Source of the DNA: an uncultured bacterium
GTDB taxonomy: Bacteria > Acidobacteriota > Thermoanaerobaculia > Multivoradales > JAHEKO01
Length of the DNA stretch: 64,000 bases
Direction: 5' to 3'
Assembly: GCA_905479655.1 (NCBI GenBank)
Contig: CAJQNK010000076.1
Location: 331 to 64,330, forward strand
The stretch's first letter is position 1, and each line of letters opens with the position of its first letter. The position numbers and the translations under genes were made by a program. Below are positions 24,996 to 58,408 of the stretch, piece after piece. The notes below the pieces were generated by a model that worked only from the letters and a program-made list of their open reading frames with translations, made no database searches and had not been told where the DNA came from.

Positions 24996-25219
24996 TCGCG
25001 TGGGCTCCTCGGGTGATGACGGCACCCGGTCGGGGACCGAAGGAGGCGAAGGATAGCCCATCCGGATGTGGACCCACCCGCCGAGGACGATCCCGGCCGA
25101 GCCGCGGTTGACGGCCCCGACACCGTCTCATACAGTTGGACCAACACGCCAATCTGGGTAGAGTCGCAACGTGGCCGCGGCGGCCTCGATCGGCTGGCGG
25201 ACCGCGCGCCCGAACGAAA

Positions 25220-26503: not shown

Positions 26504-26549
26504 GCGAGCCAGCGTGAGGATCTTGCCGGCGCGGTATACTCGCGGCTCG

Positions 26550-28376
26550 ATGAGAGCGTACCGGTGGCTGGTCCTCGCGATCGTCTCGCCGTTGCTGGGC
26601 TGCGACGCGAGCAATCCGGCCGCACCGGCGCTGCCGGAGGTCTCGGAGCCGACCGACGCGTTCGTGATCATCATCACGCCGGATGTGGCCGAGGTGGCAC
26701 CGGGCGGCACGGTGGGGCTGTCGGTCAACATCACGGACGCCGAGTCGGGTGATCCTCCGGTCGACGGAACCAGCGTGACCATCACCACGAGCGCGGGTCA
26801 GCTCGAGGCCACCAACACCGACCCGGGTCCCCTGGTGCTGGTGCCCACGATCGGCGGCGTGGCCTCGGCGACGCTCAACGCCGTCGGCCTCGCCGATGGA
26901 GACAGCGCCGAGATCCGAGCGACGCTCGAAGACACCTCGACCTCGGTCTCCATACCCGTCGTCGGTGACGCCGGGGGCGGAGGAGGAGCGGCACCCCCGG
27001 CCGCCGCCTTCACGTTCGAGTCGGACGAGCTGCTGGTCCTGTTCTCGGACGCCTCCACGGGGGAACCGACGAGCTGGCAGTGGGACTTCGGCGACCTCTC
27101 CTGTCTTCCGCTCCCCGACTGCAACCAGAGCTCGGAGCAGAACCCTCTGCACCAGTACTCGGCGGTGGACACCTACGTCGTGACCCTCACCGCCGCCAAC
27201 GTCCTGGGAACCAACACGATCCGGCAGTTCGTCGGCGTCGGCACGCCGGTCGAGCCCCTGGAGGCGGCCTTCGAGGCCGACCCCGGGGACGGAACCGGCC
27301 TCCAGGTGCTGTTCACGGACACGACGACCGGTGACCCGACGGGCTGGCTCTGGGACTTCAGCGACGGATCGACCAGTGTCGAGCAGGACCCGATCCACGA
27401 CTATCTGGTCGGCGGCAGCTACGCGGTCACCCTCGAGGTGAGCCGCGGCGCCACGACTTCGTCCACCTCGCAGTTCGTGACGGTGGGCACGGAGATCCCG
27501 GACATCATGGCGGACTTCGAGTTCGTCACCACGTCCGGCTCGTTGGTCGTGACCTTCACGGATCTCTCGGTCGGCGTCATCAGCGAGCGTCTCTGGGACT
27601 TCGGCAACGACTTCTGCACGCCCCAGCCCGACTGCACGACCAGTACCATGGCGAACCCCGTCTACGAGTTCGACTTCACGGGCGAGTACGTGACGGTCCT
27701 CACCGTGACCGACCCGACGGGCGCCACGGAGACCAAGGCACAGAGCGTCTCGGTTGACTCGGGGGAGGTCGCGCCGATCGCCGAGTTCTCCTTCGAGGAG
27801 CTCGACGGCAACGTGGTCCGTTTTACCGACGAGTCCACCAACAACCCGACCCGCTGGACCTGGGACTTCGGCGACGGCGGCTCGGACACCATCGCGAACC
27901 CCGTCCACTCGTACGCCCAGGGTGGCCGCTACACGGTGACTCTGACGGTGGCGAACGGGGGAGGCCAGGCCAGCCGCACCGAGCAGATCAATCTCGATCC
28001 ACTGGTGGCGGAGTTCAGTTTCCAGCAGAACGGCCTCGAGGCGATCTTCACCGATCTCTCCACGGGCGATCCGACCGAGTGGAGCTGGGACTTCGGGGAC
28101 AACGTCTGCATGCCGCAGCCGGATTGCACGGAGAGCACCGAACAGAACCCGAGTCACACCTACCCGGACACCGGCCCCTACACCGTGACCCTCGTGGTGA
28201 AGGACGGGCAGGGCGAGGACTCGATCACGAAGACCATCACGATCTTCCCGTTCGAGGCCCGACCTCTCGGGAGGGTACCGAGTGCCTCCTCCGAGCGTCC
28301 CGGAAGGGCCGCCGCTCCGGTGCTCGTTGGGCGGAGCGCCAAGGGCTCGCAAGGCCGGCCGCCACACCGGCGGTAA
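26550..28376 (+). CDS. lipoprotein with a Big-like domain and five PKD domains
   Basis: Lipobox LLGC after MRAYRWLVLAIVSP. Five WDFGD/WDFSDG PKD cores. Confidence 0.8.
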   Translation: MRAYRWLVLAIVSPLLGCDASNPAAPALPEVSEPTDAFVIIITPDVAEVAPGGTVGLSVNITDAESGDPPVDGTSVTITTSAGQLEATNTDPGPLVLVPTIGGVASATLNAVGLADGDSAEIRATLEDTSTSVSIPVVGDAGGGGGAAPPAAAFTFESDELLVLFSDASTGEPTSWQWDFGDLSCLPLPDCNQSSEQNPLHQYSAVDTYVVTLTAANVLGTNTIRQFVGVGTPVEPLEAAFEADPGDGTGLQVLFTDTTTGDPTGWLWDFSDGSTSVEQDPIHDYLVGGSYAVTLEVSRGATTSSTSQFVTVGTEIPDIMADFEFVTTSGSLVVTFTDLSVGVISERLWDFGNDFCTPQPDCTTSTMANPVYEFDFTGEYVTVLTVTDPTGATETKAQSVSVDSGEVAPIAEFSFEELDGNVVRFTDESTNNPTRWTWDFGDGGSDTIANPVHSYAQGGRYTVTLTVANGGGQASRTEQINLDPLVAEFSFQQNGLEAIFTDLSTGDPTEWSWDFGDNVCMPQPDCTESTEQNPSHTYPDTGPYTVTLVVKDGQGEDSITKTITIFPFEARPLGRVPSASSERPGRAAAPVLVGRSAKGSQGRPPHRR

Positions 28377-28407
28377 ACCACGCGAGGATTGACTCTCGCG
28401 GTTCGGC

Positions 28408-31302
28408 TCAGCAGTCGGCCTGAAGGCCGACAAGCGTAACGTACTCCATGTTCTGCGTGCACACGCAGACGGTAATCGCCAGAGGATCCACCGTCGTGAC
28501 GTGGATCTTTCCGGTGTCCTGCGCTGTCAGACAGGTCGCGACACCGGCTGTGTCGAACACCGGGACCTTCAACACGGTTTGCGCCGTCACCGTGTCCGCC
28601 GCCAGCGAACCCGTCGTCGACAGGTCTCCCCCGCTCAGCGTAGCGGTGCCGTCCGTCAACGCCCCGCCCTGCACCGCCGCCGAGGCCGTCACCGACGTCG
28701 CTCCGGTCAGCGCGCCTCCGGTCAGCGAAGCGGTGCCGTCCGTCAGCGTCCCGCCCTGCACCGTCCCCGAGGCCGTCACCGAAGTCGCACCCGACAGCGC
28801 GCCCGAGGCCAGCGTCGCGATGCCATCCGTCAGCGCCCCCCCACTCACGCCGCCGCCCACCATCAGGCTGCCGTTCGTGTTCAGCGCCAGGTCGCCCACC
28901 AGGGGCATGGTCACGTCCAGGCCGATCGAGGCGCCCGAGAAGGTCCCCGCGGAGTAGTCCACGCTCAACCCCGTGACGTCACCCCCATGGGTGCCCGACA
29001 GGACCAGGTCGAGACCCGTCACGGTGCCGGGATTGTTGGAGCTTCCGGCGAGCGCGACGGTCACCCCCGCGGCCTGGCCGTTGACGTTCGCGCCGCTCTT
29101 CTCGATCCGGAGGGAGCTGAAGGTCCCCATCTCGGTGTCCGACAGGGTGAGCTCTCCGGTTCCCGAGCTGAGGGTCACCAGGGGATCTCCGTCGTAGGCG
29201 TCTTGCAGAGTCACTCCGGTCCCCGCCGCTGCGAGGGCGCAGGCCAGCCCGTCCTGAACGTCGTCGACAGGGCCGCCCGGGCAGGCCGTCGACTCGTCGA
29301 AGCCGACGAACCGCGCTCCGGACAGGTCGATGCCGACTCCGCCGTCGTCGACGGTGGACCTCAGCTCGTCCAGCGCCTCTTGGACACTGGCGCCGAAGGT
29401 CAGCGCCGAGTCGATGCCGATGAGGCTCGCGCCGGTCGGCGCCGATACCGACCCGAGATCCGTCCCCAGGACGTAGAGGGACGAGTGGTCGTGGAGGCCG
29501 CTGGCATCCGCTCCCCCCGTCAGCGTCCCGAGGGCCGTCTCGTCGAGTGTCGTCGCGCCGAGCGTGAGGGTCGAGGCCGAGAGATCGCCCGTGACCGCCG
29601 TCCCCAGGGGGGTGGCGATCAGCACGTCCGTCAGCGGCCCGGAGTCGGCGGCGGCCAGCCGAATGCTCCCGATCGCGTTGCCGGGATCCTCGAGCACTGC
29701 CGAGACGCGGCCGGCCGAGGTCAGGTTGCCCCCGTCGTCCACCGACCGGAACTCGATGCCCGAGCCGATCCCACCGGCGCCGTTGCCACTGCTCAACAGG
29801 TGGTCGACCCTCAGGATGTCGGACACGGCATCGTTGGACGAATCCTCGACCTGGAAGTCGAGGGTGCTCGAGCGCAAGAGCTGAGACGCGAGGTCCGAGC
29901 CCTCGACGCCGAGATCCTGGATCTGGAGGGTGTTGATGCAACCGTCACAGTTCAGGTCGGTGATCGTGACGTTCGTCAACTGCGACCCGTCTCCGATGTA
30001 GAAGCCGGCGGTGACGGTATCGTTCACGGTCAGGTTCTCGGCTGTCAGTTCGGTGATCTGCAGGCTGTCGGACAGCAGCGCACCCTGGATCCGTACCGTA
30101 TTGGTCTCGGACCCGATGGAACCCTCTCCCCCGAGATGGATGTCGTTCCCTGTCGTTCCGCCGGACGCGAAGAGTCCGGTGCCGACGTCGTTGACGAAGT
30201 AGCCGCCGAAGGCCTCGGCACCGGTGGCCGACCCGAGGACCCCCCGGAAGGACCCGGTGCCCCAGACCCCGGCGCCATCCACCGAGGCGCTGTCGCCACG
30301 GACGCCGTAGGCCTGACCGCTGCCCGAATCGGCCAGACCCTCGAGGCCGAACCCCGAGTCGGTGGTCGTCATGCCTCGCACTCCGACACCGCCGCCGAGA
30401 GACACCCCTTCCACCCCGGCGCCGGCGCCGGAGGTCTCTCCACGCACCCCGACCGAGCGCGGGTCCGAGCTGAAGGTCTTGCCGAAGACGCCGTACGTCC
30501 AGCCGTCTTCCGTCTCTCCGAACACGCCGGCCGCACCGGTCTCGGAGCTCTCGGTCAGCCCGTGGACGCCGTAGGTGACGCCAGTCGTCGCCACCGCCTG
30601 CCCCACGACGCCGGAGGAGGTGTTGATCGGGCTACTCGTCTTCCCGCGCAATCCGAAGTAGACGTCGTCGGTGGCCGTGAGTTCGCCGAAGACAGCGGCG
30701 TCGCCCTCGATGAAGACCTCGGGAGCCGGTGTCGCATCGACGGTACGCCGCCCCACGCCCAGGATCGCTCCCGCCAGGTCGCCGACCGCACCCTCCGCGG
30801 CCAGCACCGCCCCGCCCCGCTCCTCGAGATAGCGCGCGAGCACCCGCTCGAGGGCACTCTCGACGTCCTCGATCCGTAACTCGCTGCGCACCCGGAAGAT
30901 CCGCGACTGCGACCACTCGCCCGCCGCCCCGTCGGCGGCCACGGCGCGCACGCCCCAGGCGTAGGTCTCCTCGGCTCGCAGGCAGCGGTCGAGCGGTGGT
31001 GTCCAGGAGGTGACCTCGCCGGGCAGCTCGTTCCAGAGGACCGGCCTCAGCTTCGGAAGCTCTTCACCCGCCCAGACAGCGGCCTGGCCCTCCTCCGATT
31101 CGACCTCGTACACCACCACGTGGAACCGCTCCGCGTCGGGCACGATGCCCCAGCTGAAGGTCGGGCACCGAGTCCCCACGTCCGCGCCGAAGCGAGAGGA
31201 CCCGGGCGACGAGGTCAGGGGCGCTCGCGGCACCGCGAGGACCGGCATCGCGGTGATAAACGCCACCACGAGCGACGACATGAGAGCGCTACGCTGCACC
31301 AT
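28408..31302 (-). CDS. large secreted Gly/Thr/Ser-rich fibre- or adhesin-like protein
   Basis: 964 aa with a signal-like N-terminus. Long low-complexity G/T/S/A region, then three 29-aa repeats and a Cys-containing C-terminal domain. Confidence 0.65.
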   Translation of the reverse strand: MVQRSALMSSLVVAFITAMPVLAVPRAPLTSSPGSSRFGADVGTRCPTFSWGIVPDAERFHVVVYEVESEEGQAAVWAGEELPKLRPVLWNELPGEVTSWTPPLDRCLRAEETYAWGVRAVAADGAAGEWSQSRIFRVRSELRIEDVESALERVLARYLEERGGAVLAAEGAVGDLAGAILGVGRRTVDATPAPEVFIEGDAAVFGELTATDDVYFGLRGKTSSPINTSSGVVGQAVATTGVTYGVHGLTESSETGAAGVFGETEDGWTYGVFGKTFSSDPRSVGVRGETSGAGAGVEGVSLGGGVGVRGMTTTDSGFGLEGLADSGSGQAYGVRGDSASVDGAGVWGTGSFRGVLGSATGAEAFGGYFVNDVGTGLFASGGTTGNDIHLGGEGSIGSETNTVRIQGALLSDSLQITELTAENLTVNDTVTAGFYIGDGSQLTNVTITDLNCDGCINTLQIQDLGVEGSDLASQLLRSSTLDFQVEDSSNDAVSDILRVDHLLSSGNGAGGIGSGIEFRSVDDGGNLTSAGRVSAVLEDPGNAIGSIRLAAADSGPLTDVLIATPLGTAVTGDLSASTLTLGATTLDETALGTLTGGADASGLHDHSSLYVLGTDLGSVSAPTGASLIGIDSALTFGASVQEALDELRSTVDDGGVGIDLSGARFVGFDESTACPGGPVDDVQDGLACALAAAGTGVTLQDAYDGDPLVTLSSGTGELTLSDTEMGTFSSLRIEKSGANVNGQAAGVTVALAGSSNNPGTVTGLDLVLSGTHGGDVTGLSVDYSAGTFSGASIGLDVTMPLVGDLALNTNGSLMVGGGVSGGALTDGIATLASGALSGATSVTASGTVQGGTLTDGTASLTGGALTGATSVTASAAVQGGALTDGTATLSGGDLSTTGSLAADTVTAQTVLKVPVFDTAGVATCLTAQDTGKIHVTTVDPLAITVCVCTQNMEYVTLVGLQADC
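28588..28848 (-). repeat. 3 x 87-bp tandem coding repeat (29-aa units)
   Basis: VSGGALTDGIATLASGALSGATSVTASGT / VQGGTLTDGTASLTGGALTGATSVTASAA / VQGGALTDGTATLSGGDLSTTGSLAADTV. Confidence 0.8.
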
Positions 31303-31389
31303 GAGCTTCCCTCCCGCTGATTGACGAACTACTATAGCCGAGGCCCTTCCGGATCATTGGTGAGCAGACCGGTTCGAACGGATATCGCA

Positions 31390-31872
31390 ATGAAGATCTC
31401 GTCGAAGATCCTCCACCCCTCCGTGATCCTCACGCTGGCGCTCGTCGCCAGCTCGTGCACCACGGTGAACAAGCTCTCCACCAAGACCCGCCAGCTCTTC
31501 GGCGGGGACCTCCAGGTCGAGGTGACGGTCTCGCCGAACCTGAACCAGAAGTCGCCGCTCGCGGTGGAGCTCCTGCTGTTCGAGGACAAGAAGCTCATCC
31601 CCGCCGTCGAGGGCCTGGAGGCCCGGGAATGGTTCCAGTCCAGGGAGCAGTACTTCCTCGACAACAAGAAGGGTGTCCGATCGTACCTGTGGGAGTGGGT
31701 CCCGGGGCAGTCGGTCGAACCGCTCACGGTCAAGATCAAGGCGGGCACGAAGCAGGCGATCCTGTTCGCCAACTACATGGCTCCCGGCGCCCACCGCGAG
31801 AAGCTCGACCCGCGTCGGCACTTCGTGTTGCACCTGGGCGAGCGCAAGTTCCGCGTCGAGGTCGACGAGTAG
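31390..31872 (+). CDS. tssJ: T6SS outer-membrane lipoprotein TssJ-like
   Basis: ATG at 31390. Lipobox LALVASSC. 160 aa with the SciN-like pattern (VEVTVSPNLNQKSPLAVELLLFED...WVPGQSVEPL...AILFANY). Assignment is by pattern only. Confidence 0.55.
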   Translation: MKISSKILHPSVILTLALVASSCTTVNKLSTKTRQLFGGDLQVEVTVSPNLNQKSPLAVELLLFEDKKLIPAVEGLEAREWFQSREQYFLDNKKGVRSYLWEWVPGQSVEPLTVKIKAGTKQAILFANYMAPGAHREKLDPRRHFVLHLGERKFRVEVDE

Positions 31873-31879
31873 AGCCGGG

Positions 31880-32389
31880 TCAAGAGGCGCTGCGAGCAAC
31901 CGTCTCGTCGATCCTCCCGAGCCGGTGACGGATCACGGGGCGCAGGTCCTCGAAGGCGTTGCTCTCCAGGAAAGCCTCGCGCGCTGCCGCCGCCTCGGCC
32001 ATCGAGCCGTACCGCCCCACCCGGACGGAGAGAACGGTCGAGCCCGCGGAGCGGGCGGCCCGGAAGATGCGCCCCTCGTATCCGGAAGCGGCGAGCCGCT
32101 CGACGAGCGCCTGCGCGGGGGTCTCCCGGACGAAGGTCTCGACCTCCAGCTCGTAGAGCCGGACGGCTCGCAAGCCGCCGTCCGCGCCCGATCCCGCGGG
32201 CCGAACGAGCGTACCGTCCGGCGGACCTCCGGCCCCCCCTCCCGGCAGCTCTCCGATCTCCGCCTCCGGCCCCGAAGGCGGCCCGACAGGACGGCTCCAG
32301 CGACTCCCGGCCCACACTCCCAGAAGGAAGATCAGCAGGGCGACGAGGACCCCGAAGCAGCCGAGGCCGAGCGCCCGCGCCCGTTTCAC
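31880..32389 (-). CDS. membrane-anchored SPOR-domain (peptidoglycan-binding) protein
   Basis: GTG at 32389 (VKRARALGLGCFGVLVALLIFLLG TM helix). C-terminal LYELEVETFVRETPAQALVERLAASGYEGRIF..VRVGRYGSMAEAAAAREAF is SPOR-like. Confidence 0.6.
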   Translation of the reverse strand: MKRARALGLGCFGVLVALLIFLLGVWAGSRWSRPVGPPSGPEAEIGELPGGGAGGPPDGTLVRPAGSGADGGLRAVRLYELEVETFVRETPAQALVERLAASGYEGRIFRAARSAGSTVLSVRVGRYGSMAEAAAAREAFLESNAFEDLRPVIRHRLGRIDETVARSAS

Positions 32390-32450
32390 GATCCGGACTC
32401 CTGCCGGTCCCCCGCCATCGCCGCCATCGCCTCGCGGCACCGGCGATCGA

Positions 32451-33971
32451 TCACCGGACCCCTCCCACCAACCCGGTCGCCCCCAGGGCCCGCATCGCGG
32501 CGCCGACCCGTCGAACGTAGGTTCGTGTCTCGGCGAAGGGCGGCACGTCGCCGTACCGGCCGACGGCACCCTCGCCCGCGTTGTAGGCGCCGAGAACGAG
32601 CAGGGGATCGCCATCGTACCGCTCGACCAGCGCATCGAGGTAGCGCACCCCCGCACGGAGGTTGCTGCGGGGGTCGAACAGGGAGTCGGGTCCCACTCCG
32701 AACCGGACGCCCGTCTCCGGCATGACCTGCATCAGCCCGAGGGCCCCCTTCGGAGAGACGGCCTGGGGGTCGAATCTGGACTCGACCCAGACCATGGCCG
32801 CGACCAGCCGGGGGTTCACAGAGTGCGCCTCGGCCTGCTCGAAGATCAGGCGGCCGAACGGAGTCTCCGGGATCGGGCGCGCCGCGCCGAAGACGAGGTC
32901 GGCGCGCCGGAGGGCGGGTGCCGCGTGGGCCGCGTCTAGATCGACGACAGACCATCGCGCCAGACTGCCACCTGACCTCGGATCGGCGGCCTCGAGCAGC
33001 TCCCGCATTCGCCGGGTGCCGCCCGCGAGGGGGTCCCGAGGCTCGCTCGGCGATTCGCCGCTGGCCGCCGTCTCGTCCACCGCCACGGTCGTCGCCGCGG
33101 CCGTCGACCCGCCGGACGGGGCCGGCTCGACCGCCGGGGCCGGAGGCAAGATCGCCTCCTCCAGGGGCCATCGATAGTGACCGAGCACCCGCACCGCGCC
33201 CAGGAGATCCTCCTCCCGAGGCGTGCCTCGGCCACGGCTCGAGTGGTGGATGACCAGGGGCGCACCTCCGGCTCCCCGGCGATCCGAGACGATGCCCAGA
33301 TGCGTGGCGCGAGAACCGTCGGATTCGTTCCAGACGACAATGTCGCCGGCGCGCCAGGAGCGGTCGAGCCCGGTGACCCCGGAGTGACGGTCCAGGTACG
33401 TCACGACGTTTCGAACCCGCCGATGATCGACGCTCGGATCGGGCTCCGTGACGCCGTAGGCCGCAGAATTCGCGCGGATCGCCTCGTGAATCCGCCGCTG
33501 GAGATCGACGCCCACCGCCCGCAGGCTGCGGACGACCAGGTCGGCGGTGGTTCCCCGCTCCCACCCCGGGTCGCCCCCGGGGTACTCGAGAAGGACGTAA
33601 CTGGTGTCGTAGCGGGGAGCCCGTGCCATCGACTCGCGAGCCCCGCGGACGATCGCGGCGCCCATCCGCTGCTCCTCCAAGAGCCGGATCTCCGCCGGAT
33701 CGGGCTCGGGAAGCGGTGGTGGCGACGCTGGCTCGAGCTCGACGAGCGCGGCCGCGACGCGTCGCTCGACCTCGCCGGGAACCACCCAGCGCACGCCGGT
33801 GAGCAGGCCCGCCAGAAACAGGAGCACCGAGGTCGCCACCGCGGCCGCGACGGCCAGGGCCAGGATTCTCCTGTCCTTGAAGATCGACGGGTCCAAGAGC
33901 CTCCTTCGCGAGCCGGCTCGACGCGCGACACCGGCCCCACTGCGCGACGGATGATGGAACGACCATACCAT
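32451..33971 (-). CDS. membrane-anchored DUF1287-like domain fused to an SLT lytic transglycosylase domain
   Basis: N-terminal TM helix. YDTSYVLLEYPGGDP..DHRRVRNVVTYL..GDIVVW..THLGIV..GHYRW is DUF1287-like. C-terminal VWVESRFDPQAVSPKGALGLMQVMP..AYNAGEG is the SLT catalytic-Glu motif. Confidence 0.75.
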   Translation of the reverse strand: MVWSFHHPSRSGAGVARRAGSRRRLLDPSIFKDRRILALAVAAAVATSVLLFLAGLLTGVRWVVPGEVERRVAAALVELEPASPPPLPEPDPAEIRLLEEQRMGAAIVRGARESMARAPRYDTSYVLLEYPGGDPGWERGTTADLVVRSLRAVGVDLQRRIHEAIRANSAAYGVTEPDPSVDHRRVRNVVTYLDRHSGVTGLDRSWRAGDIVVWNESDGSRATHLGIVSDRRGAGGAPLVIHHSSRGRGTPREEDLLGAVRVLGHYRWPLEEAILPPAPAVEPAPSGGSTAAATTVAVDETAASGESPSEPRDPLAGGTRRMRELLEAADPRSGGSLARWSVVDLDAAHAAPALRRADLVFGAARPIPETPFGRLIFEQAEAHSVNPRLVAAMVWVESRFDPQAVSPKGALGLMQVMPETGVRFGVGPDSLFDPRSNLRAGVRYLDALVERYDGDPLLVLGAYNAGEGAVGRYGDVPPFAETRTYVRRVGAAMRALGATGLVGGVR

Positions 33972-33985: not shown

Positions 33986-36427
33986 CTAGACGAAGCTCCC
34001 CAGGGCGTCGACCGTCACGTGGATCGAAGAGAATCCCCGGCCCTGGGCCATCCTCCCCAGGATCCTCACCGAGAGCTCCGGCAGGAGGGCCTCGTGGAAC
34101 ATCCGGTCGATCCGTCGCGCACCGTCCTCCGCGCGGCCGCAGCGATCGGTCAAGACCTCCACTAGCTGCCGCTCGAAGGTCAGCTCGGCTCCGTGCCGTC
34201 GCCGGATGCGCTCCCGGACCTCCTCGAGTCGCATCTCCACGATCCTCCGGATCTCGGCGCCACCGAGGGGGAGGTAGGGAACGACCTCGAGCCTGCCGAC
34301 GAGGCCTCCTGGGAATCTACCGCCGAGGACCGGCCGCAGGAGGTCGCGAAGGTCCTCGAGTCCCGGCTGCCCGGAGGAGCCCTCCGGCTCCTCGAGCAGC
34401 ACGTCCGACCCGACGCCCGTCGTCAGGAGCACCACGGTGTGACGGAAGTCCACCCGAACGCCTTCCGCGTCATCGAGAACCCCCCGGTCGAAGACGGGAT
34501 AGAACATCTCGAGCACGTCCCGGTGGGCCTTCTCCACCTCGTCGAGGAGCACGATGCAGTAGGGCCGCCGACGCACCGCCTCGGTGAGGAGGCCACCGCG
34601 GCCGTACCCGACGTAGCCCGGCGGCGATCCCCGGAGCGTGGCCACCGAGTGGGCTTCCTGGTACTCGGACATGTTCAGCGTCACGAGGCTCCGGGCACCC
34701 CCGAACATCGCGTCGGCGAGCGCCGCGGCGGTCGCCGTCTTGCCGACTCCCGGCGGACCCGCCAGAAGGAAGGTCCCGAGGGGCCGGCCCGGGTCCTCGA
34801 GCCCCGCCCTCGAGGTGACGATCCGGCGGCTGATGGCCTCCATCGCCATCGGTTGTCCTACGATCCTTCGCCCGAGGGCCTTCCGAAGGCCGAGGACCGT
34901 TTCCACGTCGTCGGACTCCATACTGCCGGCGGGTATCCCCGTCCAGGCGGAGAGAACCTCGGCCACGACCGAGCCGTCCACCGCCACGGGCACCAGGGGC
35001 CGGCCCGCCTGGAACTCGCGGCAATCCCGAAGGCGCCTTTGCAGCTCGTCGTCGTCCGTCGCGTTTCGACCCTCGTCCTCCACCAGGACCAGGCGCTGCT
35101 GCGCCGCACGAACGAGTGCCCTCTCCGTCTCCAGCCTCGCCTCGAGCCGGGACCTTTCCGCCGCGAGCTCGGCGATCCTCTCGTCCAGGCCCTCGTCCTC
35201 GATCTCGCCCCGGCGCCCCTCGCGCAGGAGCGTCGATCTCCGGGATCCCAGACGCTCGAGATTCTGGACCACCTCCGCCAGAGGTTGTGGAAGCAGATCC
35301 CGCGCCAGCGCGACGCGGGAGCAGGCCGTGTCCAGAACACTGATCGCCTTGGCCGGGAGCCGCCTCTCCGGCAGGTAGCGCTGCGACATCCGCACCGCGT
35401 CTCGCACGGCTTCCTCGAGGATCCGAACCTCGTGGTGGCTCTCGAGCGCGGGCACCGCCCCGAGGACCATCTCGATGGCCTCCGCTTCGCTCGGCTCGTC
35501 CACCTTGACCGGCTGGAATCGCCGAGCCAGGGCCGGATCCCTCTCGAAGTAGCGCTTGTACTCCGACCACGTGGTCGCCGCGATGGTGCGCAGCTCGCCG
35601 GCTGCCAGCGCGGGCTTCAGGAGGTTCGCCGCGTCTCCGAGGCCCTCCGGACCGCCGGCACCGATCAAGGTGTGCGCCTCGTCGATGAAGAGGATCACCG
35701 GCCGCGGCGCATCCCGGACCTCCGCCACCACGTTCTTGAGACGTCGCTCGAACTCCCCCTTGACGCCGGCGCCGGCCTGAAGAAGCCCGAGGTCGAGGGT
35801 GCGGAGCGAGATCTCGCGCAGTGCCTCGGGCAGGTCGCCCGACACGATCCGCAGAGCGAGCCCCTCGGCGATCGCGGTCTTGCCGACCCCGGCGTCGCCG
35901 ACCAGGATCGGGTTGTTCTGCCGCCGCCGAGTCAGGATGTCGATGACCTGCCGGATCTCGCGCTCCCGCTCGAGGACCGGGTCGATCCGCTCTTCGCGCG
36001 CCAGCGTCACGAGGTCGAGGGTGTAGAGGCGCAAGGCCGAGTCGGTGGAGGCCCCCTCCACCACCCGGCGGGCAGGAGACGGGGCGCGGGAGACCTCGAT
36101 CGTCTCCCCCTCTTCCTCGGGCGGCGCCTTCCTGTGGGCCGGCACCGCGCCCTCGGCGGAGCCGGCGATCAGATCGGCCAGGTCCTTCACGAGACGGTCT
36201 CGCGAAACGTGGGCGAGTACCGGGCACGAATCGAGGGCCCGCCCCCGGAGCTGCTCGTCCTGGAGCAGGGCGAGCAGCACCGTGCCCGAGCGGACGACCT
36301 CGGACTCCAGGTGCAACGAGGAGCGAACCCAGGCCTCCCGCAGCAGGCGGACGACCTCCGGCGACATCGACGGCGTTCGACGGTTGCCACGCTCGAGACG
36401 CCCGAGGGCGGCGTCGAGCTCCCGCAA
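33986..36427 (-). CDS. clpV: ClpV/TssH-family AAA+ ATPase paralogue (the ORF left downstream of an in-frame TAG)
   Basis: Two AAA+ modules: GDAGVGKTAIAEGLA + ILFIDEAHTLIGAG, and LLAGPPGVGKTATAAALA + IVLLDEVEKAH. Collinear with the second ClpV at 55736-58408. The track start at 36427 is a TTG inside the N-domain. Confidence 0.8.
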   Translation of the reverse strand: MRELDAALGRLERGNRRTPSMSPEVVRLLREAWVRSSLHLESEVVRSGTVLLALLQDEQLRGRALDSCPVLAHVSRDRLVKDLADLIAGSAEGAVPAHRKAPPEEEGETIEVSRAPSPARRVVEGASTDSALRLYTLDLVTLAREERIDPVLEREREIRQVIDILTRRRQNNPILVGDAGVGKTAIAEGLALRIVSGDLPEALREISLRTLDLGLLQAGAGVKGEFERRLKNVVAEVRDAPRPVILFIDEAHTLIGAGGPEGLGDAANLLKPALAAGELRTIAATTWSEYKRYFERDPALARRFQPVKVDEPSEAEAIEMVLGAVPALESHHEVRILEEAVRDAVRMSQRYLPERRLPAKAISVLDTACSRVALARDLLPQPLAEVVQNLERLGSRRSTLLREGRRGEIEDEGLDERIAELAAERSRLEARLETERALVRAAQQRLVLVEDEGRNATDDDELQRRLRDCREFQAGRPLVPVAVDGSVVAEVLSAWTGIPAGSMESDDVETVLGLRKALGRRIVGQPMAMEAISRRIVTSRAGLEDPGRPLGTFLLAGPPGVGKTATAAALADAMFGGARSLVTLNMSEYQEAHSVATLRGSPPGYVGYGRGGLLTEAVRRRPYCIVLLDEVEKAHRDVLEMFYPVFDRGVLDDAEGVRVDFRHTVVLLTTGVGSDVLLEEPEGSSGQPGLEDLRDLLRPVLGGRFPGGLVGRLEVVPYLPLGGAEIRRIVEMRLEEVRERIRRRHGAELTFERQLVEVLTDRCGRAEDGARRIDRMFHEALLPELSVRILGRMAQGRGFSSIHVTVDALGSFV

Positions 36428-36496
36428 CAGCTCGTCGACGTCGACCCCGGAGGCGGCGAAGATCGGCGGCAGGTCGATGCCGGGGAGGTCGACCAG

Positions 36497-36625
36497 CTAG
36501 CGCAGGAAGTGCTCGACCTCCACCGAGTAGTGCGTCTCGGCCACACACGAGCCAGCCGCCATCTCGAGCGCCCGCCTGCAGATCGGATTGAGCTTGTGGA
36601 GCAGAACCTCGAGCTGATTCGACAT
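36497..36625 (-). pseudogene. clpV: ClpV N-domain 5' fragment (42 codons) terminated by in-frame TAG
   Basis: ATG at 36625: MSNQLEVLLHKLNPICRRALEMAAGSCVAETHYSVEVEHFLR, then TAG (36497-36499). The same frame then continues LVDLPGIDLPPIFAASGVDVDELLRELDAALG.. into the large ORF. It aligns with MTMDLKGLIEKLNPVCRRALETAAGRCVAQTHYNVEVEHFLLELLEAEG of the other ClpV. Confidence 0.7.
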
Positions 36626-36637
36626 CGGAGGTCGGCC

Positions 36638-37393
36638 TCAAGCCAACAGCAGGTACACCACGGCGCCGAGGGTTGCCGCCTGGAGCGCAAGGAGCCACCA
36701 GACCGCCCGGCCCAGGGTGCGGCTCCTCCGAGTCAGCTCCTCCCGACTCGACTCCAGGGTTCTCGAAAGGCCGAGTCGGAGGTCGACCAGGCCGCGGAGC
36801 AGCACGCCGCTACGTTCCTCCACCTTGGCCTGGAGCTCGATCCGCCCGCCCTCGACCTCGTCGCGAACCCGAGTCAGGGCCGCGGCCGTGGCCTCCTCGT
36901 GGGCCCGCCGCGCCAGGGCGAAGCCGCGGGCCACCTGGGACGACGTCTCGGAGGTCGCCGCCTGATGCTCCTGCCGAAACGCCGAGATCCCCTCGGCGAC
37001 GTCGACCTCGATCCCGGTCAGTCGCCCTTCCAGGCTCTGGCGGGCCTCTCCCACGGCGTGCAGGGCCTCGACCCGCAGGTCCGAGATCTGGCCACCGGTC
37101 GCCTCGAGACCCGCCTGCAGTCTGGTCGGATCGATCGCCTCGAGAATCGAGAGCACGGACGTCATGCGCGTCGTCGTCTCCTCCAGCGCCTCGACATAGT
37201 CGCGTAGCGAGCCGGCGGCTTCCCGCAGCCCGTGGCTTCCCTCCACCACACCGTCGCGCGCGACGTCGATTCGGGCGGTCGCGTCCCGCAGCTCACGGGA
37301 GGCCGCTCCGAGCTTGCGCAGTTGCCGCTCCGCCTCCACGAACCGCCGCTTCACCTGCGCGAGGGCCAGCGTGCCGTCAGATTCCGTCGTCAT
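36638..37393 (-). CDS. coiled-coil protein with a single C-terminal TM helix (tail-anchored)
   Basis: ATG at 37393 forms an ATGA overlap with the upstream stop. 251 aa, Ala/Glu/Arg/Leu-rich, ending RAVWWLLALQAATLGAVVYLLLA. Confidence 0.6.
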   Translation of the reverse strand: MTTESDGTLALAQVKRRFVEAERQLRKLGAASRELRDATARIDVARDGVVEGSHGLREAAGSLRDYVEALEETTTRMTSVLSILEAIDPTRLQAGLEATGGQISDLRVEALHAVGEARQSLEGRLTGIEVDVAEGISAFRQEHQAATSETSSQVARGFALARRAHEEATAAALTRVRDEVEGGRIELQAKVEERSGVLLRGLVDLRLGLSRTLESSREELTRRSRTLGRAVWWLLALQAATLGAVVYLLLA

Positions 37394-45857: not shown

Positions 45858-48800
45858 TTAGTAGGTGAGATCCGCCAGGGGGATCGGGGCCGGTGCGGTC
45901 TCGTCGTGCCAGGCCTTCGCCTTGTCGAGCTCCCCGGCGTCGATGTCGGCCGGCGCCGGTCGGCGATTCGCCTCGGGCCACTGCCAGATCGAACGGTAGC
46001 GGGGCTCCTGGGTCGCGCCGGTATTGTCGGTCCGGTAGAAGCTCCACCCCCGGAGGCGAAGCATGCAGCCCGTGCAGAAGACCCTGTGGACGCTGAAGTT
46101 GTACGACATCAGGCAGCCGCTCTTCGACACGAGCTCGTGCAAGCGGGTGGGATCCCCGATCGCCCCCGCGTGGGGGTGGTTGAGGCCCAGGCAGTGTCCG
46201 ATCTCGTGCCCCAGGGTCTGCTCCCGGGAGTTCCGGCCCTCGGTCGTGTACTTGTTGCCACACAGGACGATGAAGCCGTTGGTGGCGGCTTGCAGGGGCA
46301 CACCGAAGCCGTTGGGACCGCCGAAGTTGTCGAGCTCGTTGACCTGGAAGACGTAGACTCCGTCCGCCCGCGCCGGGTGCTGGGCCGCCAGGTACTGCTC
46401 GACCACCTCGAGGAAGACCATCCGGGCCCAGTTGGTCTGGCAGGCCCCCTCGTAGCCCGACTTCCTCTCCCAGTACGAAGACCTCCAGAGGAGTGAGGTG
46501 GCGTTCTGATCCGGATACTGGTTGAGGACGCTGCCGTCGTCTTGAACCGGGACGACGCCGAAGGGGTTGACCTCGGTCGGGGCGAAGGTCGTGTCGCTCG
46601 TGAAATGGTCGTCCGGATCGCCGGTCGGACCATAGAGGGCGATCATGTTCTGCTTCCAGGTGTCGAAGTCGACGAAGTTGACGGCATCGTCGCTGTCGGC
46701 CCACTGGTCGCCAGTCTGATCGACGGCCGCCACCAGGTAGTCCGGTAGGTTGCCGCTCGTCAGAGCCGCCGCGAACGCCTGGTTCCAGTGAGCCCGGACC
46801 ACCGCGGTGGGACCCGCGGCCTCGTCGACGACCCGGATGAAGGCGTTGTCGTAGCCCGCCTGGATCTGCGTCAGATCGACCGTCTCCATCCGCGGAACTC
46901 CCCCCGGCGCGGGGTTGTCGTAGTGGCCGAGGGGCGCCATCCTCTTCTTGAAGTAGCCGGCGATGTGGACCTCGCGCCAGACCTCGAAGACGCCGGTCGC
47001 AGCGTGCCGCTCCGGCCCCAGATCCTCGGCCGCGGCGGCGAACAGGTCCGGATCCGACTCGTCCAGGTCGTCGGCATCGTGGGTGAGGTAGAGGTGGAGC
47101 CGGTAGCGATCCCCGCCCTGGATCGACGGTTGGAAGATCACACCGGTCCGCCCGACGCAGTCGGCGGCGCCCTCGGACCAGATGCCGCTGGACACGCTCC
47201 AAGTGCGGTCCGTGAGGGGCGCGACCGCGAAGGGGAACTGCTGACCGGGTCTCGGCGAGGCCGGAGTGACCCCGGCCTGCGGCGGGAACACCGCCCGGGC
47301 GGAGCCGCTGCCATCCGTAGGCGTCCCGCGCTTGCCTCCACGATCCGCATGGCAGTTCCTCCCCGCCGGGCTCGTCGGGGTCTCCTCCACCTCGTACTCG
47401 GTCGCCAGCCCGAGAGCCTTCCAGGCATCGAAGCTCATGCCCTTGTCCGCGAGGAAGACCGGGTCGATCGCCCGCTTGCGGAGCTGTGCCTGCTGGTCCT
47501 GCTGCCACTCCAGGTCCGGTGGAGTGGCACGCGGCTTCGCCAACCACTTCTCGAACTCCTCGTCGGCGTCGCGGAGGGCGTCCTCCCCCCCCGGCGCTTC
47601 GTCCACCGTGCCGCGGATGACCTTGGAGCAATCCTCCCAGTCCCAGACACACTTCAGGTTCGACAGGGTCTCCGGGACCGTGTTGGGGGCCCCTCCCGAG
47701 GCCAGGATCCGGAGCCGGGCGAACAGCGGGATGTTGGGCCCGTCGCCCCAGACAGCGCGGTGGGCGTCGTAGGGGTGGTTGTTCCACTGTTGCGCCGTCG
47801 TCGCCGAGAAGCTGTTGCTCCAAAGGTAGACCCGCTTCGTCTGGTCCTCTTCCTCGGTCTTCTTGGGGGGGCGACCCGCCAGGTTCGTGAGGTTCCTGCG
47901 GTCCGAGAGTGAGTTCCAGACCCACTGGTCGCGCTCGTCGTTGCCGGTGCCCAAAGTGGGTGAGGCGGCGAGCACGTCGAGCGGGCCCCATTCGAAGACG
48001 ACGGGCGCCAGCTTGACCTCGAAGTTGGTCCAGGCGAGGCCGGGCTCACCGAAGCCGTCTCCCTCGAGCACGAGCTGGAGGACGTAGGGCGACTCCGAGA
48101 TCGAGAGCACCTCCTGGGGCAACGGGGCGTCCTCGTCGTAGGGCCCGTACTCGTGGAGCCAGAACTCGCCGTTCTCGGATCGCGCTCCCACCGCCTGGGG
48201 CCGGCCGGGAAGGGGCTGGTAGTAGCCCGAGACGCCGTTCCAGCGAAGGTCGTGGTCCCCCGGATCGCACTCGCCCGCCTCCACGTCGAGATCGCGCCGC
48301 CAGAGGAGCTCGCCGTCCCGAGCCCGGCGCAGCTCCAGCCGCCCACCGGTCACGAGATCGTGGTCGTCCTCGATGGAGTAGAGGATGTGCACGACCTCCT
48401 CCAACGGTGCGAAGTGGAAGTCGACCTTGTCGGGTGTCTTGTCCTTGGGATCGGGTACGTGGCTCGTCGACTCCAGATCGCCGCCTTCGTTCTTCAACTG
48501 GAGCTTGGTGACGGCGAAGGTCAGGTCTTCCTTGATCTTCGGCCAGTCCCAGCCACGGATTCGCAGGACGCACAGGCCGCAGAAGCGCTCCGAGTCCTGG
48601 TCGTAGTTCATGATGCAGTTGTCGGTGTGGTGCCCCGTCTCGAGCGGCGGGGGCGGCCGGCGGCCCGTCTTCTCGAGCGCGTGGGGGATGAACAGGGCGT
48701 GAGCCAGCTCGTGGGAAGCGATCGGGTCCGCCGCCTTGTAGAGGATGTCGGAGTCGTCGGACCACGTCCTCTGGGTCCAATGGCCGCCCCCCTCCCAGGT

Positions 48801-51506: not shown

Positions 51507-51508
51507 GC

Positions 51509-51946: not shown

Positions 51947-51989
51947 CCTCCTTCGGACCACCGCGAGATCCCCGAGGGAGCGAACGGGC

Positions 51990-52526: not shown

Positions 52527-52635
52527 CGCCTCGGGGACCAGGGAGGCTACCGACTCCCGACTCTCGTGCAAGTCGCCTCCCTCCTGGCTTCCATCCGTCG
52601 CGTCCCGCACCCGGGGGGACTCAGGCCTCGGCCTC

Positions 52636-52788: not shown

Positions 52789-52827
52789 CGCCGTGACCTC
52801 CACACGGGAGGCCGCACCCTCGTCCTC

Positions 52828-53163: not shown

Positions 53164-53286
53164 AGCTAGCCACTTCGAAGCGAGAGACCCCGCATCGCCG
53201 GCCCCTGCGCGGACCGCGACAACGCTCCTGGTTTATCGAGCCTGCCGAGCTCGGCGCTCTCTGTCGACGACGTCACTCTTCCTGGC

Positions 53287-53292: not shown

Positions 53293-53317
53293 TGCAAACC
53301 GGCGCGAGGGCTCCCAT

Positions 53318-53857: not shown

Positions 53858-53866
53858 CCGACTCTC

Positions 53867-55735: not shown

Positions 55736-58408
55736 TCAGCCCTCCACCCTGTAGGCGAGGCCCCCGCTCTCGCCCAGCGAGACGTGGACCTCGGTGAAGC
55801 TCGCCCCCTCGGCCATCCGGCCGAGCAGCTCGGCCGAGAGCTCGGGCAGCAGGGTCTGACCGAGGAGGAAGTCGACGTTGCGGGCTCCCGTGTCGCGATG
55901 GCCGCTTCTCGCCGCGATGTCCTCCACGACCGCGTCGTCCCAGGTGAGCTCGGCGACGTGCCGCTCGCGGATCCGCCGCCGGATCTCCTCGAGCTTCAAC
56001 CGCACGATGGCCCGGATGTGCCCGACCTCGAGCGGGTAGTAGGGAACCACGACGAGACGGCCCAGGAGGGCCGGCCTGAAATGTGCCACGAGGGCTGAAC
56101 GCACCGCCTCGGTCAGCTCCCCTGGGGACGGCCTCTCCCCTCCCGCTGCCGCGGAGCAGGCGTCGAGGATCACCTCCGATGCGAGGTTGGTGGTCAGCAG
56201 CAGGATCGTGTTGCGGAAGTCCACGGGCACGCCCTCTCCGTCCTCCAGGGTGCCCTTGTCGAACACCTGGTAGAAGAGCTGCATGACGTCTCCGTGGGCC
56301 TTCTCCGCCTCGTCCAGCAGGACGACGCTGTAGGGGCGTCGGCGGACCGCCTCCGTCAGCACGCCCCCCTCCCCGTAGCCGACGTAACCGGGAGGCGAGC
56401 CCTTCAGAGTGGCGACCGAGTGCCCCTCCTGGAACTCGGACATGTTGAGGGAGACCATGTTCCGCGAGCCGCCATAGAGGAGATCGGAGAGGACGATCGC
56501 GGTCTCGGTCTTGCCGACGCCGCTCGGGCCCACGAGGAGGAACACCCCCTGGGGCTTGCTCGGATCGTCGAGCTCCGCCCGGGTGGTGCTGATTCGCCGG
56601 GCGATCACGGAGAGCGCCTGGGGTTGGCCGACCAGGCGCTCCGCCATCCTCTCCTCGAGCGACAGGACGCCCTGAATCTCGTCCGCCAGCATGCGGCCCA
56701 CCGGGATCCCGGTCCAACCGGAGATCACCGAAGTCACCACCCGGGTGTCGACGTGTCGAGGCACCAGCGGCTCCGCTCCCGCCAGTCGCTCGTACTCCTC
56801 GACGAGGCCGGCCAGCCGCGCAACGGGGTCGGTTTCGGAGGAGTCGGTCCCCTCCTCCCCGTTCGCGATGCCCGCCTCGAGCTCCAGGATCTCCCCCACC
56901 ACCTCGAGCTCCCTCTCCCACCGCTCAGACAACGCGGCGCGCTCGCCCTCCAACTCGCGGCGCCGCACCTGGAGGCGCTCAACGGCCTCGCCGTGATCCT
57001 CACCGGTGGCCCGCTCCCGCTCGAGCGCCTCGATCTCGAGAATCACGGGCTGAAGCCTCCGATCCAGCTCCTCCACCGCGGGCGGTGTCCCGTCCAGAGC
57101 CAGAGCCACGCGGGCGCAGGCGGTATCGAGGACGCTGATCGCGCTGTCCGGGAGTCGGCGCTCGGAGAGATAGCGAGCCGAGAGTCGCACGGCGCTCCGC
57201 ACCGCCTCGTCGCGGATTCGGACACCGTGGTGATCGGCGAGATTGACCGCCACCGCCCGCAGCATGTCGACGGCCGCCTCCTCCTCCGGTTCGTCGACCC
57301 GCACCAACTGGAAGCGCCGGGTCAGCGCCGGGTCCTTCTCGAAGTACTTCTTGTACTCGGCCCAGGTCGTCGCGGCGATCGTCCGCACCTCGCCTCGGGC
57401 CAGGGCCGGCTTGAGCAGATTCGCCGCGTCGCCCTGACCCGCCGCCCCGCCGGCGCCGATCAGGTTGTGGGCCTCGTCGACGAACAGGATCACCGGCCTC
57501 GGCGCCGTCCGCACTTCGTCGATCACCTTCTTCAGCCGCTCCTCGAACTCGCCCTTGATTCCCGCGCCCGCCTGCAGAAGGCCCAGATCGAGGATCCGGA
57601 CCGAGATGTCGCGAAGCGCCGACGGCACGTCCTCGGCGGCAACCCTCCGAGCAAACCCCTCGACGATGGCCGTCTTCCCGACCCCGGCGTCACCAACCAG
57701 AATCGGGTTGTTCTGACGACGGCGGGTCAGGATGTCGATCACCTGCCGGATCTCGCGAGATCGCCCCCGAATCGGATCGATTCTCCCCGCTGCCGCCTCG
57801 GCCGTCAGGTCGATCGTGTAGGCACCGAGCGACGGGGTCTGGGAGGGCGTTTCACGACCGGGGGCCCGAGCCGCAGCAGCCGTCGACGAGCGCGTCCCGA
57901 GGGGCCGGCCAGACCCGCCGACGGTGGCCCTCTCCTCGTCCGAGTGGGGCAGCAAGTCGGGCAGGTCGGCCTGGAGCCGGTCCAGTGAAAGGGCGGTCAA
58001 CCCCGGGCAGGAGTCGACGACGATCTGACGGAACTCCTCGCCCTCGACCAGCGCCTTGAGGACGGCGCCGGAGCGCACGGTCGGAGCCCCGAGCTCGACG
58101 GAGGACACGAGCCAGGCCTGCTGGAGGAGCCTCGGCAACTGCGGTGACATCGCGGGAGTCCGGCTGCTCCCCCGCCGGAAGCCGTCGAGGGCGCCGGTGA
58201 GCTCCTTCGCCAGAGAGTCGCGGTCGACCTCGTAGTAGCGCAGGACGACCCGGAGATCGGTGCCCTCCGCTTCCAGGAGCTCCAGCAGGAAGTGCTCGAC
58301 CTCCACGTTGTAGTGGGTCTGAGCGACGCATCGACCCGCGGCGGTCTCCAGCGCGCGACGACAGACCGGATTGAGCTTCTCGATCAGCCCCTTGAGATCC
58401 ATCGTCAT
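55736..58408 (-). CDS. clpV: ClpV (TssH) AAA+ ATPase, intact
   Basis: 890 aa with a full N-domain. GDAGVGKTAIVEGFA / ILFVDEAHNLIGAG and LLVGPSGVGKTETAIVLS / VVLLDEAEKAH. ATGA overlap with tssG. Confidence 0.9.
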   Translation of the reverse strand: MTMDLKGLIEKLNPVCRRALETAAGRCVAQTHYNVEVEHFLLELLEAEGTDLRVVLRYYEVDRDSLAKELTGALDGFRRGSSRTPAMSPQLPRLLQQAWLVSSVELGAPTVRSGAVLKALVEGEEFRQIVVDSCPGLTALSLDRLQADLPDLLPHSDEERATVGGSGRPLGTRSSTAAAARAPGRETPSQTPSLGAYTIDLTAEAAAGRIDPIRGRSREIRQVIDILTRRRQNNPILVGDAGVGKTAIVEGFARRVAAEDVPSALRDISVRILDLGLLQAGAGIKGEFEERLKKVIDEVRTAPRPVILFVDEAHNLIGAGGAAGQGDAANLLKPALARGEVRTIAATTWAEYKKYFEKDPALTRRFQLVRVDEPEEEAAVDMLRAVAVNLADHHGVRIRDEAVRSAVRLSARYLSERRLPDSAISVLDTACARVALALDGTPPAVEELDRRLQPVILEIEALERERATGEDHGEAVERLQVRRRELEGERAALSERWERELEVVGEILELEAGIANGEEGTDSSETDPVARLAGLVEEYERLAGAEPLVPRHVDTRVVTSVISGWTGIPVGRMLADEIQGVLSLEERMAERLVGQPQALSVIARRISTTRAELDDPSKPQGVFLLVGPSGVGKTETAIVLSDLLYGGSRNMVSLNMSEFQEGHSVATLKGSPPGYVGYGEGGVLTEAVRRRPYSVVLLDEAEKAHGDVMQLFYQVFDKGTLEDGEGVPVDFRNTILLLTTNLASEVILDACSAAAGGERPSPGELTEAVRSALVAHFRPALLGRLVVVPYYPLEVGHIRAIVRLKLEEIRRRIRERHVAELTWDDAVVEDIAARSGHRDTGARNVDFLLGQTLLPELSAELLGRMAEGASFTEVHVSLGESGGLAYRVEG

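What the first reader, a model, noticed from the sequence alone, without database searches (positions are those of the whole stretch)
36497..36625. Second clpV is interrupted by an in-frame TAG at codon 43 of the N-domain
I translated 36625 downwards base by base. MSNQLEVLLHKLNPICRRALEMAAGSCVAETHYSVEVEHFLR is followed by TAG (36497-36499), and the same frame runs on into the 813-aa ORF. The intact paralogue has EHFLLELLEAEG at this position, so a single GAG-to-TAG change would explain the stop. TAG is a genuine stop elsewhere in the window (hcp, tssC, MFP and the FadL-like gene end in TAG), so codon reassignment is unlikely. Three outcomes are possible: a fresh pseudogene, a sequencing or assembly error, or an N-terminally truncated ClpV re-initiated at TTG 36427 or a later Met. 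The truncated form would lack the part of the N-domain that, in characterised ClpVs, docks onto the TssC helix.
Basis: seen in the sequence. Interest (0 to 1): 0.65.

Follow-up and report, generated by a model that had tools for sequence, protein, structure and literature searches.

The report
One-run stop codon in clpV2
The stop codon that seems to break a second type VI secretion ATPase gene is a single G-to-T difference carried by thin read support from one sequencing run, while every other data set from the same marine bacterial population reads an intact gene, so this is an ordinary artefact or rare variant, not a feature of the organism.

Summary
On the minus strand, TAG sits at 36499-36497 as codon 43 of an otherwise perfect 879-codon tssH/clpV gene (33986-36625).

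The stop does not belong to the lineage:
- An independently deposited 181-kb ENA scaffold of the same population matches the window exactly over 13,925-64,000, apart from a tandem-repeat copy number and this one base. It reads GAG (Glu43) and encodes the intact 879-aa protein.
- Per-run contigs of three public marine metagenome runs from two studies also read GAG.
- Only one run, X5, carries TAG, at word depth about 2.4. It comes from the same sample as two of the GAG runs.

TAG ends at least six other genes in the window, including clpV2 itself, so the codon is not reassigned. The gene shows no other decay.

The most likely explanation (about 0.55) is a library or sequencing error read twice at about 2x depth and then taken up by the assembler. 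The change is G>T on the coding strand. The main rival (about 0.38) is a genuine rare nonsense allele in the wild population. Either way the organism's clpV2 is intact.

Interest is low.

The parts
36497..36499 (-). In-frame TAG, codon 43 of clpV2. The variable base is 36499: A on the plus strand, which is T on the coding strand. All other data sets read C on the plus strand, which gives GAG (Glu).
33986..36625 (-). Full clpV2 (tssH) reading frame: 879 codons plus a TAG stop. It is intact in ENA scaffold_36 as protein P0121.
   Evidence: (TIGR03345 1059 bits)
36500..36625 (-). 42-codon N-terminal stub, called as a separate 42-aa gene (P0122) on the window's own contig. It encodes helices H0 and H1 of the ClpV N-domain.
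33986..36367 (-). 793-aa gene call (P0001) on the window's contig, starting at Met87. This is the form an annotator produces because of the stop. The longest mechanical ORF starts at TTG 36427 (813 aa).
55736..58408 (-). clpV1, the intact in-cluster paralogue (890 aa), lying between tssG and vgrG. It is 53% identical to clpV2.
36638..37393 (-). 251-aa gene directly upstream of clpV2, ending 12 nt before its ATG. It is predicted helical with a hydrophobic C-terminal tail and has no family match.
37390..40848 (-). 1152-aa gene of unknown family. Its stop overlaps the start of the 251-aa gene, so it is probably in the same operon as clpV2.
32451..33896 (-). 481-aa DUF1287 plus SLT lytic transglycosylase gene, immediately downstream of clpV2.

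Best explanation
clpV2 is an intact, full-length (879 aa) TssH/ClpV AAA+ ATPase gene in this marine Acidobacteriota-like (Thermoanaerobaculia-like) population. The TAG at codon 43 is one G-to-T change on the coding strand (C-to-A on the plus strand). It exists only in thin read support (word depth about 2.4) from one sequencing run. Most likely it is a library-level error, such as an oxidised guanine or a PCR error in one fragment read twice, for example by overlapping mates. That error passed the k-mer count threshold at about 2x coverage and the assembler that built the window's contig took it. The consequence is annotational: the gene was split into a 42-aa stub and a 793-aa N-terminally truncated protein. 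Shown here: the base is private to one run and the gene is intact elsewhere. Inferred: that the base arose by damage or error rather than by mutation in a cell.
For: (1): ENA scaffold_36 (180,987 bp) matches the window exactly over 13,925-64,000, except for the copy number of an 87-bp tandem repeat and base 36499, where it reads GAG. It encodes P0121, the 879-aa protein with Glu43. (2): contigs of runs X1 (study P1), X2 and X4 (study P2) read C at plus-strand 36499 at all of their depth (2, 5.7 and 2.4), and this is the only difference in 35900-37300. (3): in a query where every 31-mer spans the variant, only run X5 holds the TAG words, on a single 443-bp contig at depth 2.4. X5 is from the same sample as X2 and X4. 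(4): the sibling runs carry other low-depth variants found in no other run. These include a second C>A in X5 (31573), which the window did not adopt. All five such SNVs change the protein (E43*, L62M, P1430L, T1628I, G841R), none falls on a third codon position, and there is also a 1-bp insertion in vgrG. That is the pattern of changes not yet filtered by selection, as noise would be. (5) The gene shows no other decay. Both Walker A and B pairs and the pore-loop motifs are intact, GC3 is 0.89, and the TIGR03345 score is above its cutoff. (6) From my own knowledge, not tested on reads: G>T/C>A is the classic signature of 8-oxoguanine damage.
Against: The T allele reached a k-mer count of at least 2 across 31 consecutive words in X5, and no GAG contig was recovered from X5, so within that run it was the dominant reading. 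Independent sequencing errors would rarely do that, which means the explanation requires one damaged or mis-copied fragment to have been read twice. The window carries X5's base at 36499 but not at 31573 or 47218, so I do not understand how its assembler chose. Only contigs were available, not raw reads, so duplicate status, mate status and read-orientation bias could not be examined. With only five SNVs, the nonsynonymous-only pattern is weak statistics.
Confidence: 0.55

Rival explanations
1. The T is a genuine but rare nonsense allele (E43*) segregating in the natural population. A minority of cells carry a freshly inactivated clpV2, and by sampling chance they dominated the 2-3 reads that covered the site in run X5.
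For: The allele is read-supported at a count of at least 2 in X5 and is the only allele assembled from that run. clpV2 is a second, out-of-cluster copy beside an intact clpV1, so losing it may cost little. GC-to-AT changes are also the usual direction of real mutation in GC-rich genomes. New, slightly deleterious variants at low frequency are expected to be mostly nonsynonymous.
Against: It is absent from X2 and X4 of the same sample, from X1 of another study and from the ENA scaffold. None of the six run-private variants is shared between runs, and all five SNVs among them are nonsynonymous. The population is otherwise clonal over 50 kb.
Confidence: 0.38
2. The window comes from a distinct strain in which clpV2 is a fixed, fresh pseudogene.
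For: The deposited contig carries the stop, and its annotation splits the gene into P0122 (42 aa) and P0001 (793 aa).
Against: A distinct strain should differ elsewhere, yet the window and scaffold_36 show no other point difference in about 50 kb. Sibling runs of the very sample that holds TAG read GAG at higher depth. There are no secondary lesions and no relaxation of codon bias.
Confidence: 0.05
3. The TAG is decoded, either by reassignment, pyrrolysine or programmed read-through, or it is bypassed by re-initiation at TTG67 or Met87 to give a functional N-terminally truncated ClpV.
For: The frame stays open and conserved on both sides of the stop.
Against: TAG terminates 6 of the 18 genes checked, including clpV2 itself. 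The alternative allele is a plain GAG, and homologues carry K, E, Q, R or N at this position, so no special residue is conserved there. No Shine-Dalgarno-like motif precedes TTG67 or Met87. A Met87 product would lack H0, H1 and the H4-H5 loop that form the TssC cleft (PMC5048182).
Confidence: 0.02

Closest known systems
Single-base consensus errors or minority-read variants in low-coverage metagenome assemblies, which produce false internal stops and split gene calls
   Same: One base is involved, supported at about 2x depth in one run. It is contradicted by every other data set of the same population, is a G>T/C>A change, and causes the gene to be annotated as two pieces.
   Different: The base is not a pure assembler invention, since Logan's independent per-run assembly of X5 also carries it. 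It therefore sits in reads, and a real rare allele cannot be excluded without those reads.
TssH/ClpV, the type VI secretion sheath-recycling AAA+ ATPase (TIGR03345; N-domain structures 3ZRI/3ZRJ, 4UQW, 4HH5/4HH6)
   Same: The match to TIGR03345 is full-length and above the cutoff. There are two AAA+ modules with intact Walker motifs. The N-domain is homologous to solved ClpV N-domains, and the H1 glutamate (E21, equivalent to EAEC E24) is conserved.
   Different: clpV2 is not in the T6SS core cluster. It lies about 20 kb downstream, after the VgrG / DUF4280 / DUF4123 / 1882-aa module and behind two genes of unknown family. It is only 53% identical to clpV1 and at most 58% identical to anything else in the databases searched.
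Non-interchangeable paralogous ClpVs of enteroaggregative E. coli (Douzi et al. 2016, PMC5048182)
   Same: One genome carries two ClpV paralogues, and the N-domain cleft (H0, H1, H4-H5 loop) determines which TssC is recognised.
   Different: In EAEC each ClpV has its own T6SS cluster and its own TssC. Here only one tssBC pair is visible, and the H0-H1 segment of clpV2 is 69% identical to that of clpV1. Redundancy on the same sheath is therefore plausible, but it was not tested.

Membership tests
TssH/ClpV (TIGR03345) | Full-length match to the equivalog model above its curated cutoff | tested here: met
   1059.1 bits against a cutoff of 884.95, residues 12-871 on model positions 1-851 (codon 43 masked as X). 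ClpB and ClpA models score far below their own cutoffs.
TssH/ClpV (TIGR03345) | Two AAA+ modules with intact Walker A and B motifs, plus the ClpB_D2-small domain | tested here: met
   (AAA, AAA_lid_9, AAA_2, ClpB_D2-small). One search shows GDAGVGKT / ILFIDEAH and GPPGVGKT / VLLDEVEKAH.
TssH/ClpV (TIGR03345) | ClpV-type N-domain with the H0/H1 cleft | tested here: met
   E = 2.4e-18 to V. cholerae ClpV-N (3ZRI), 2e-14 to P. aeruginosa ClpV1-N (4UQW) and 1e-10 to 4HH5. This holds for the intact allele; the TAG allele would truncate the domain.
TssH/ClpV (TIGR03345) | Encoded within a T6SS core gene cluster | tested here: not met
   clpV2's neighbours have no T6SS family match, and the core cluster with clpV1 lies about 20 kb away on the same strand. 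The closest foreign homologues, P0002 and P0003, do sit after tssG.
TssH/ClpV (TIGR03345) | Binds the TssC N-terminal helix and disassembles contracted sheaths | not testable with these tools
   Biochemical and cell-biological assay required.
Fixed pseudogene | The lesion is present in all copies of the lineage or population | tested here: not met
   GAG in X1, X2, X4 and ENA scaffold_36. TAG is found only in X5.
Fixed pseudogene | Secondary decay, such as further stops, frameshifts, lost motifs or relaxed codon bias | tested here: not met
   a single stop; GC3 0.89; motifs intact.
Stop-codon reassignment or recoding | TAG occurs in-frame in other conserved genes and is not used as a terminator | tested here: not met
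   6 of 18 genes end in TAG, and none of the other 17 has an internal stop.
Sequencing or assembly artefact | The variant is confined to low-depth data of one run and contradicted by the others | tested here: met
Sequencing or assembly artefact | The supporting reads trace to one fragment, or show damage-type orientation bias or low quality | not testable with these tools
   Only Logan contigs of these runs were available, not raw reads.

The most novel reading that the evidence does not exclude
The TAG is a real nonsense allele caught while segregating in a wild, otherwise clonal marine Acidobacteriota-like population. That would be the first step in losing a redundant, out-of-cluster second ClpV, observed before any secondary decay. 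It would suggest that clpV2 is dispensable when clpV1 is present.
Probability: 0.35. Interest if true: 0.25.

Novelty: not a real feature. Interest (0 to 1): 0.08.

Why it matters
The value is mainly quality control. The deposited contig and its protein calls (a 42-aa stub and a 793-aa N-terminally truncated TssH) misrepresent a gene that is intact in the population, so anyone counting ClpV pseudogenes or N-domain-less ClpVs in metagenome-assembled genomes would be misled. It also shows that a contig built from runs of about 2-6x word depth can carry the private base of a single run. If the allele turned out to be real, it would be a minor example of ongoing loss of a redundant paralogue. The more interesting open question lies beside the finding: what an orphan, divergent ClpV does in an operon with two proteins of unknown family.

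Tried and rejected
Codon reassignment or pyrrolysine: rejected, because TAG terminates six other genes and the other allele is GAG.

Recent duplication of clpV1: rejected. clpV2 is 53% identical to clpV1, clpV2 is 58% identical to the foreign homologue P0003, and clpV1 is 61% identical to P0003.

Metatranscriptomes of study P1: no usable cover of clpV2, only 18-nt spurious matches.

Looking for a close relative genome to compare the codon: the genome-contig scan gave nothing closer than 55% identity, and the 5.8-billion-protein search gave nothing closer than 58% apart from the same population.

Pfam, NCBIfam, PADLOC and PDB sequence searches of clpV2's neighbours (394, 136, 608, 315, 1152 and 251 aa): no meaningful hits, only a weak beta-propeller signal for the 315-aa protein and coiled-coil noise for the 251-aa protein.

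A contig 'joint' 31246->38752 that would delete clpV2: its shorter side is only 21 nt and there is no microhomology at the junction, so I did not treat it as evidence of a deletion form.

Full report
**1. The observation**

Reading the minus strand from ATG 36625 gives MSNQLEVLLHKLNPICRRALEMAAGSCVAETHYSVEVEHFLR. TAG follows at 36499-36497, and the same frame then continues without another stop to 33986. The mechanical ORF list shows the 813-aa ORF from TTG 36427.

This is a broken gene rather than a chance ORF boundary. With codon 43 masked, the 879-residue product scores 1059 bits on NCBIfam TIGR03345 (TssH/ClpV; cutoff 885), and the match starts at residue 12, upstream of the stop. In addition, 29 of the first 42 residues match the paralogue at 55736-58408(-), which reads VEVEHFLLELLEAEG at this point.

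TAG ends hcp, tssC, tssF, the Toluene_X/FadL-like gene, the 405-aa gene at 1817-3034 and clpV2 itself, which is 6 of 18 genes checked, and none of the other 17 has an internal stop.

**2. What other data from the same organism say**

The protein database holds three members of this protein's 90% cluster:
- A 793-aa call and a 42-aa call, both on the window's own 64.6-kb contig. This is the gene split by the stop.
- An 879-aa protein, P0121, on a 180,987-bp ENA scaffold (ERZ23498415, SOLA22-1_SAMEA7060535 scaffold_36). Its sequence is the read-through product with Glu at position 43.

I fetched three overlapping stretches of that scaffold and compared them with the window base by base. Over window 13,925-64,000 the two are identical except in two places. 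One is a copy-number difference in an 87-bp tandem repeat at about 28,628-28,855. The other is base 36499, which is G in the scaffold and T in the window on the coding strand. So the stop is the only point difference in about 50 kb.

**3. Run-level evidence**

A k-mer search found marine-metagenome runs from two studies that hold this region. Their per-run Logan contigs were laid on the window.
- Runs X1 (study P1), X2 and X4 (both sample S2, study P2) read C at plus-strand 36499, which is GAG, at all of their depth (2, 5.7 and 2.4). This is their only difference from the window in 35900-37300.
- I then searched with a 61-base query in which every 31-mer spans the variant. Only run X5, also from sample S2, holds those words.
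- X5 has one 443-bp contig (36206-36648, word depth 2.4) identical to the window.

The T is therefore present in reads and is not invented by the window's assembler. But it is confined to thin support in one run, while sibling runs of the same sample, a run of another study and the ENA scaffold all read the sense codon. The ENA scaffold may share data with X1, so I count these as at least three independent supports for GAG, not four.

**4. Artefact or rare allele?**

Laying the sibling runs on 27,000-64,000 showed that each run carries a few private low-depth variants:

| Position | Change | Run | Effect |
|---|---|---|---|
| 31573 | C>A | X5 | L62M |
| 47218 | G>A | X5 | P1430L |
| 46624 | G>A | X2 | T1628I |
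| 55888 | C>T | X2 | G841R in clpV1 |
| 54147 | +G | X8 | frameshift in the last four codons of vgrG |

- 55888 is covered by no other run, so strictly it is not shown to be private.
- With E43*, all five SNVs change the protein. None falls on a third codon position, although GC3 is about 0.9, and none is shared between runs.
- Variants filtered by selection should be rich in synonymous third-position changes. The observed pattern fits unfiltered noise, or very recent mutations, better. With five events this is only suggestive.
- Two of X5's three private SNVs are C>A on the plus strand, the change type associated with oxidised guanine. That association is my own knowledge and was not tested at read level.

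Against the artefact reading:
- The T reached a count of at least 2 over 31 consecutive words, and no GAG contig came out of X5. This requires one altered fragment to have been read twice, for example by overlapping mates or a PCR duplicate.
- The window adopted X5's base at 36499 but not at 31573 or 47218, and I cannot explain that choice.

I put the artefact at about 0.55 and a true rare nonsense allele at about 0.38. A fixed pseudogene in a distinct strain gets about 0.05, because there are no linked differences in 50 kb and no secondary decay. Recoding or functional re-initiation gets about 0.02.

**5. What the gene is and how it would work**

The intact clpV2 has both AAA+ modules with Walker A and B motifs (GDAGVGKT / ILFIDEAH and GPPGVGKT / VLLDEVEKAH) and the ClpB_D2-small domain. 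Its N-domain is homologous to the solved ClpV N-domains of V. cholerae (3ZRI/3ZRJ, E = 2.4e-18), P. aeruginosa (4UQW) and 4HH5/4HH6.

In enteroaggregative E. coli, the TssC N-terminal helix docks in a cleft formed by H0, H1 and the H4-H5 loop of the ClpV N-domain, and this contact sets ClpV-T6SS specificity (PMC5048182). By the alignment, ClpV2 E21 corresponds to the H1 glutamate E24, and the H4-H5 loop falls at about residues 79-86. A product restarted at TTG67 would therefore lose H0 and H1, and one restarted at Met87 would lose all three cleft elements. However, neither restart codon has a Shine-Dalgarno-like motif, and since the main allele is intact no such product needs to be proposed.

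By inference from the family, the intact protein is a hexameric unfoldase that recycles contracted TssBC sheaths. Its H0-H1 segment is 69% identical to that of clpV1, so it could plausibly act on the same sheath. This is untested.

**6. Context**

The window carries one T6SS core cluster on the minus strand: tssC, hcp, tssE, tssF, tssG, clpV1, vgrG. In the ENA scaffold, tssB, tssA and tssM continue beyond the window. Next come DUF4280, DUF4123 and a 1882-aa protein, and then a run of genes without family matches (394, 136, 608, 315, 1152 and 251 aa). After those come clpV2, a DUF1287-SLT protein and a SPOR protein.

clpV2 is not a recent copy of clpV1 (53% identity). Its best foreign relatives are at most 58% identical and sit in the canonical position after tssG. 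No close relative genome was found among GTDB species representatives. The organism is an Acidobacteriota/Thermoanaerobaculia-like marine bacterium, judged only by the source names of the best hits.

**7. Verdict**

The stop codon is really in the window, but it is not a feature of the organism. It is a one-base, one-run, low-depth difference that splits the annotation of an otherwise intact gene. Novelty: not a real feature, or at best an ordinary rare nonsense variant. Interest is low.

Noticed in passing
window 33986-40848 (-), with L001 5778-12640: clpV2 is an orphan, divergent TssH, at most 58% identical to anything else in the databases searched. It appears to form an operon with a 1152-aa protein and a 251-aa helical protein that has a hydrophobic C-terminal tail. 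The stop of the 1152-aa gene overlaps the start of the 251-aa gene, and a 12-nt gap separates the 251-aa gene from clpV2. Neither partner has a Pfam, NCBIfam, PADLOC or PDB sequence match. The 1152-aa protein has a stretch (LLVIDEVEAICPWCPEFGHP) that looked to me like a degenerate RecQ-type motif II; that is only an impression.
   Followed up: partly
window 28628-28855 (gene 28408-31302, -): An 87-bp (29-aa) tandem repeat has 2.6 copies in the window and one more copy in ENA scaffold_36 (964 aa against 993 aa). This is either a repeat-length polymorphism or an assembly collapse in a large protein of unknown function.
   Followed up: partly
window 31573, 46624, 47218, 55888, 54147: Low-depth variants found in only one run of sample S2: L62M, T1628I, P1430L, G841R in clpV1, and a +G frameshift in the last four codons of vgrG. 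All change the protein and none is shared between runs. This suggests noise at the per-run contig level, or very young microdiversity.
   Followed up: partly
window 31246 -> 38752: Contigs of X5, X2 and X8 (depth 2) were reported as a joint that skips 7505 bases, which would remove clpV2 and its neighbours. The shorter side is only 21 nt, there are 2 unmatched letters between the sides, and there is no microhomology at the junction. It is probably a spurious alignment of a contig from elsewhere.
   Followed up: partly
window 45858-55731 (-): Downstream of vgrG lies a typical cargo module: DUF4280 (PAAR-like), DUF4123 (adaptor) and a 1882-aa protein with no family match. The 1882-aa protein is a candidate large T6SS effector.
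   Followed up: no
L004 (ENA ERZ25039483 contig_7017) compared with window 24000-33900: In a related Acidobacteriota genome, the T6SS cluster is followed within a few kb by SPOR and Toluene_X genes. In the window the same two landmarks lie beyond clpV2. The roughly 20-kb block from the 1882-aa gene to clpV2 therefore looks like a lineage-specific insertion between vgrG and the SPOR gene.
   Followed up: no
window 40276-40426: One 151-nt contig from a metatranscriptome run (X10, depth 2.1) matches the 1152-aa gene exactly. It may be a weak sign of transcription, or DNA carry-over.
   Followed up: no
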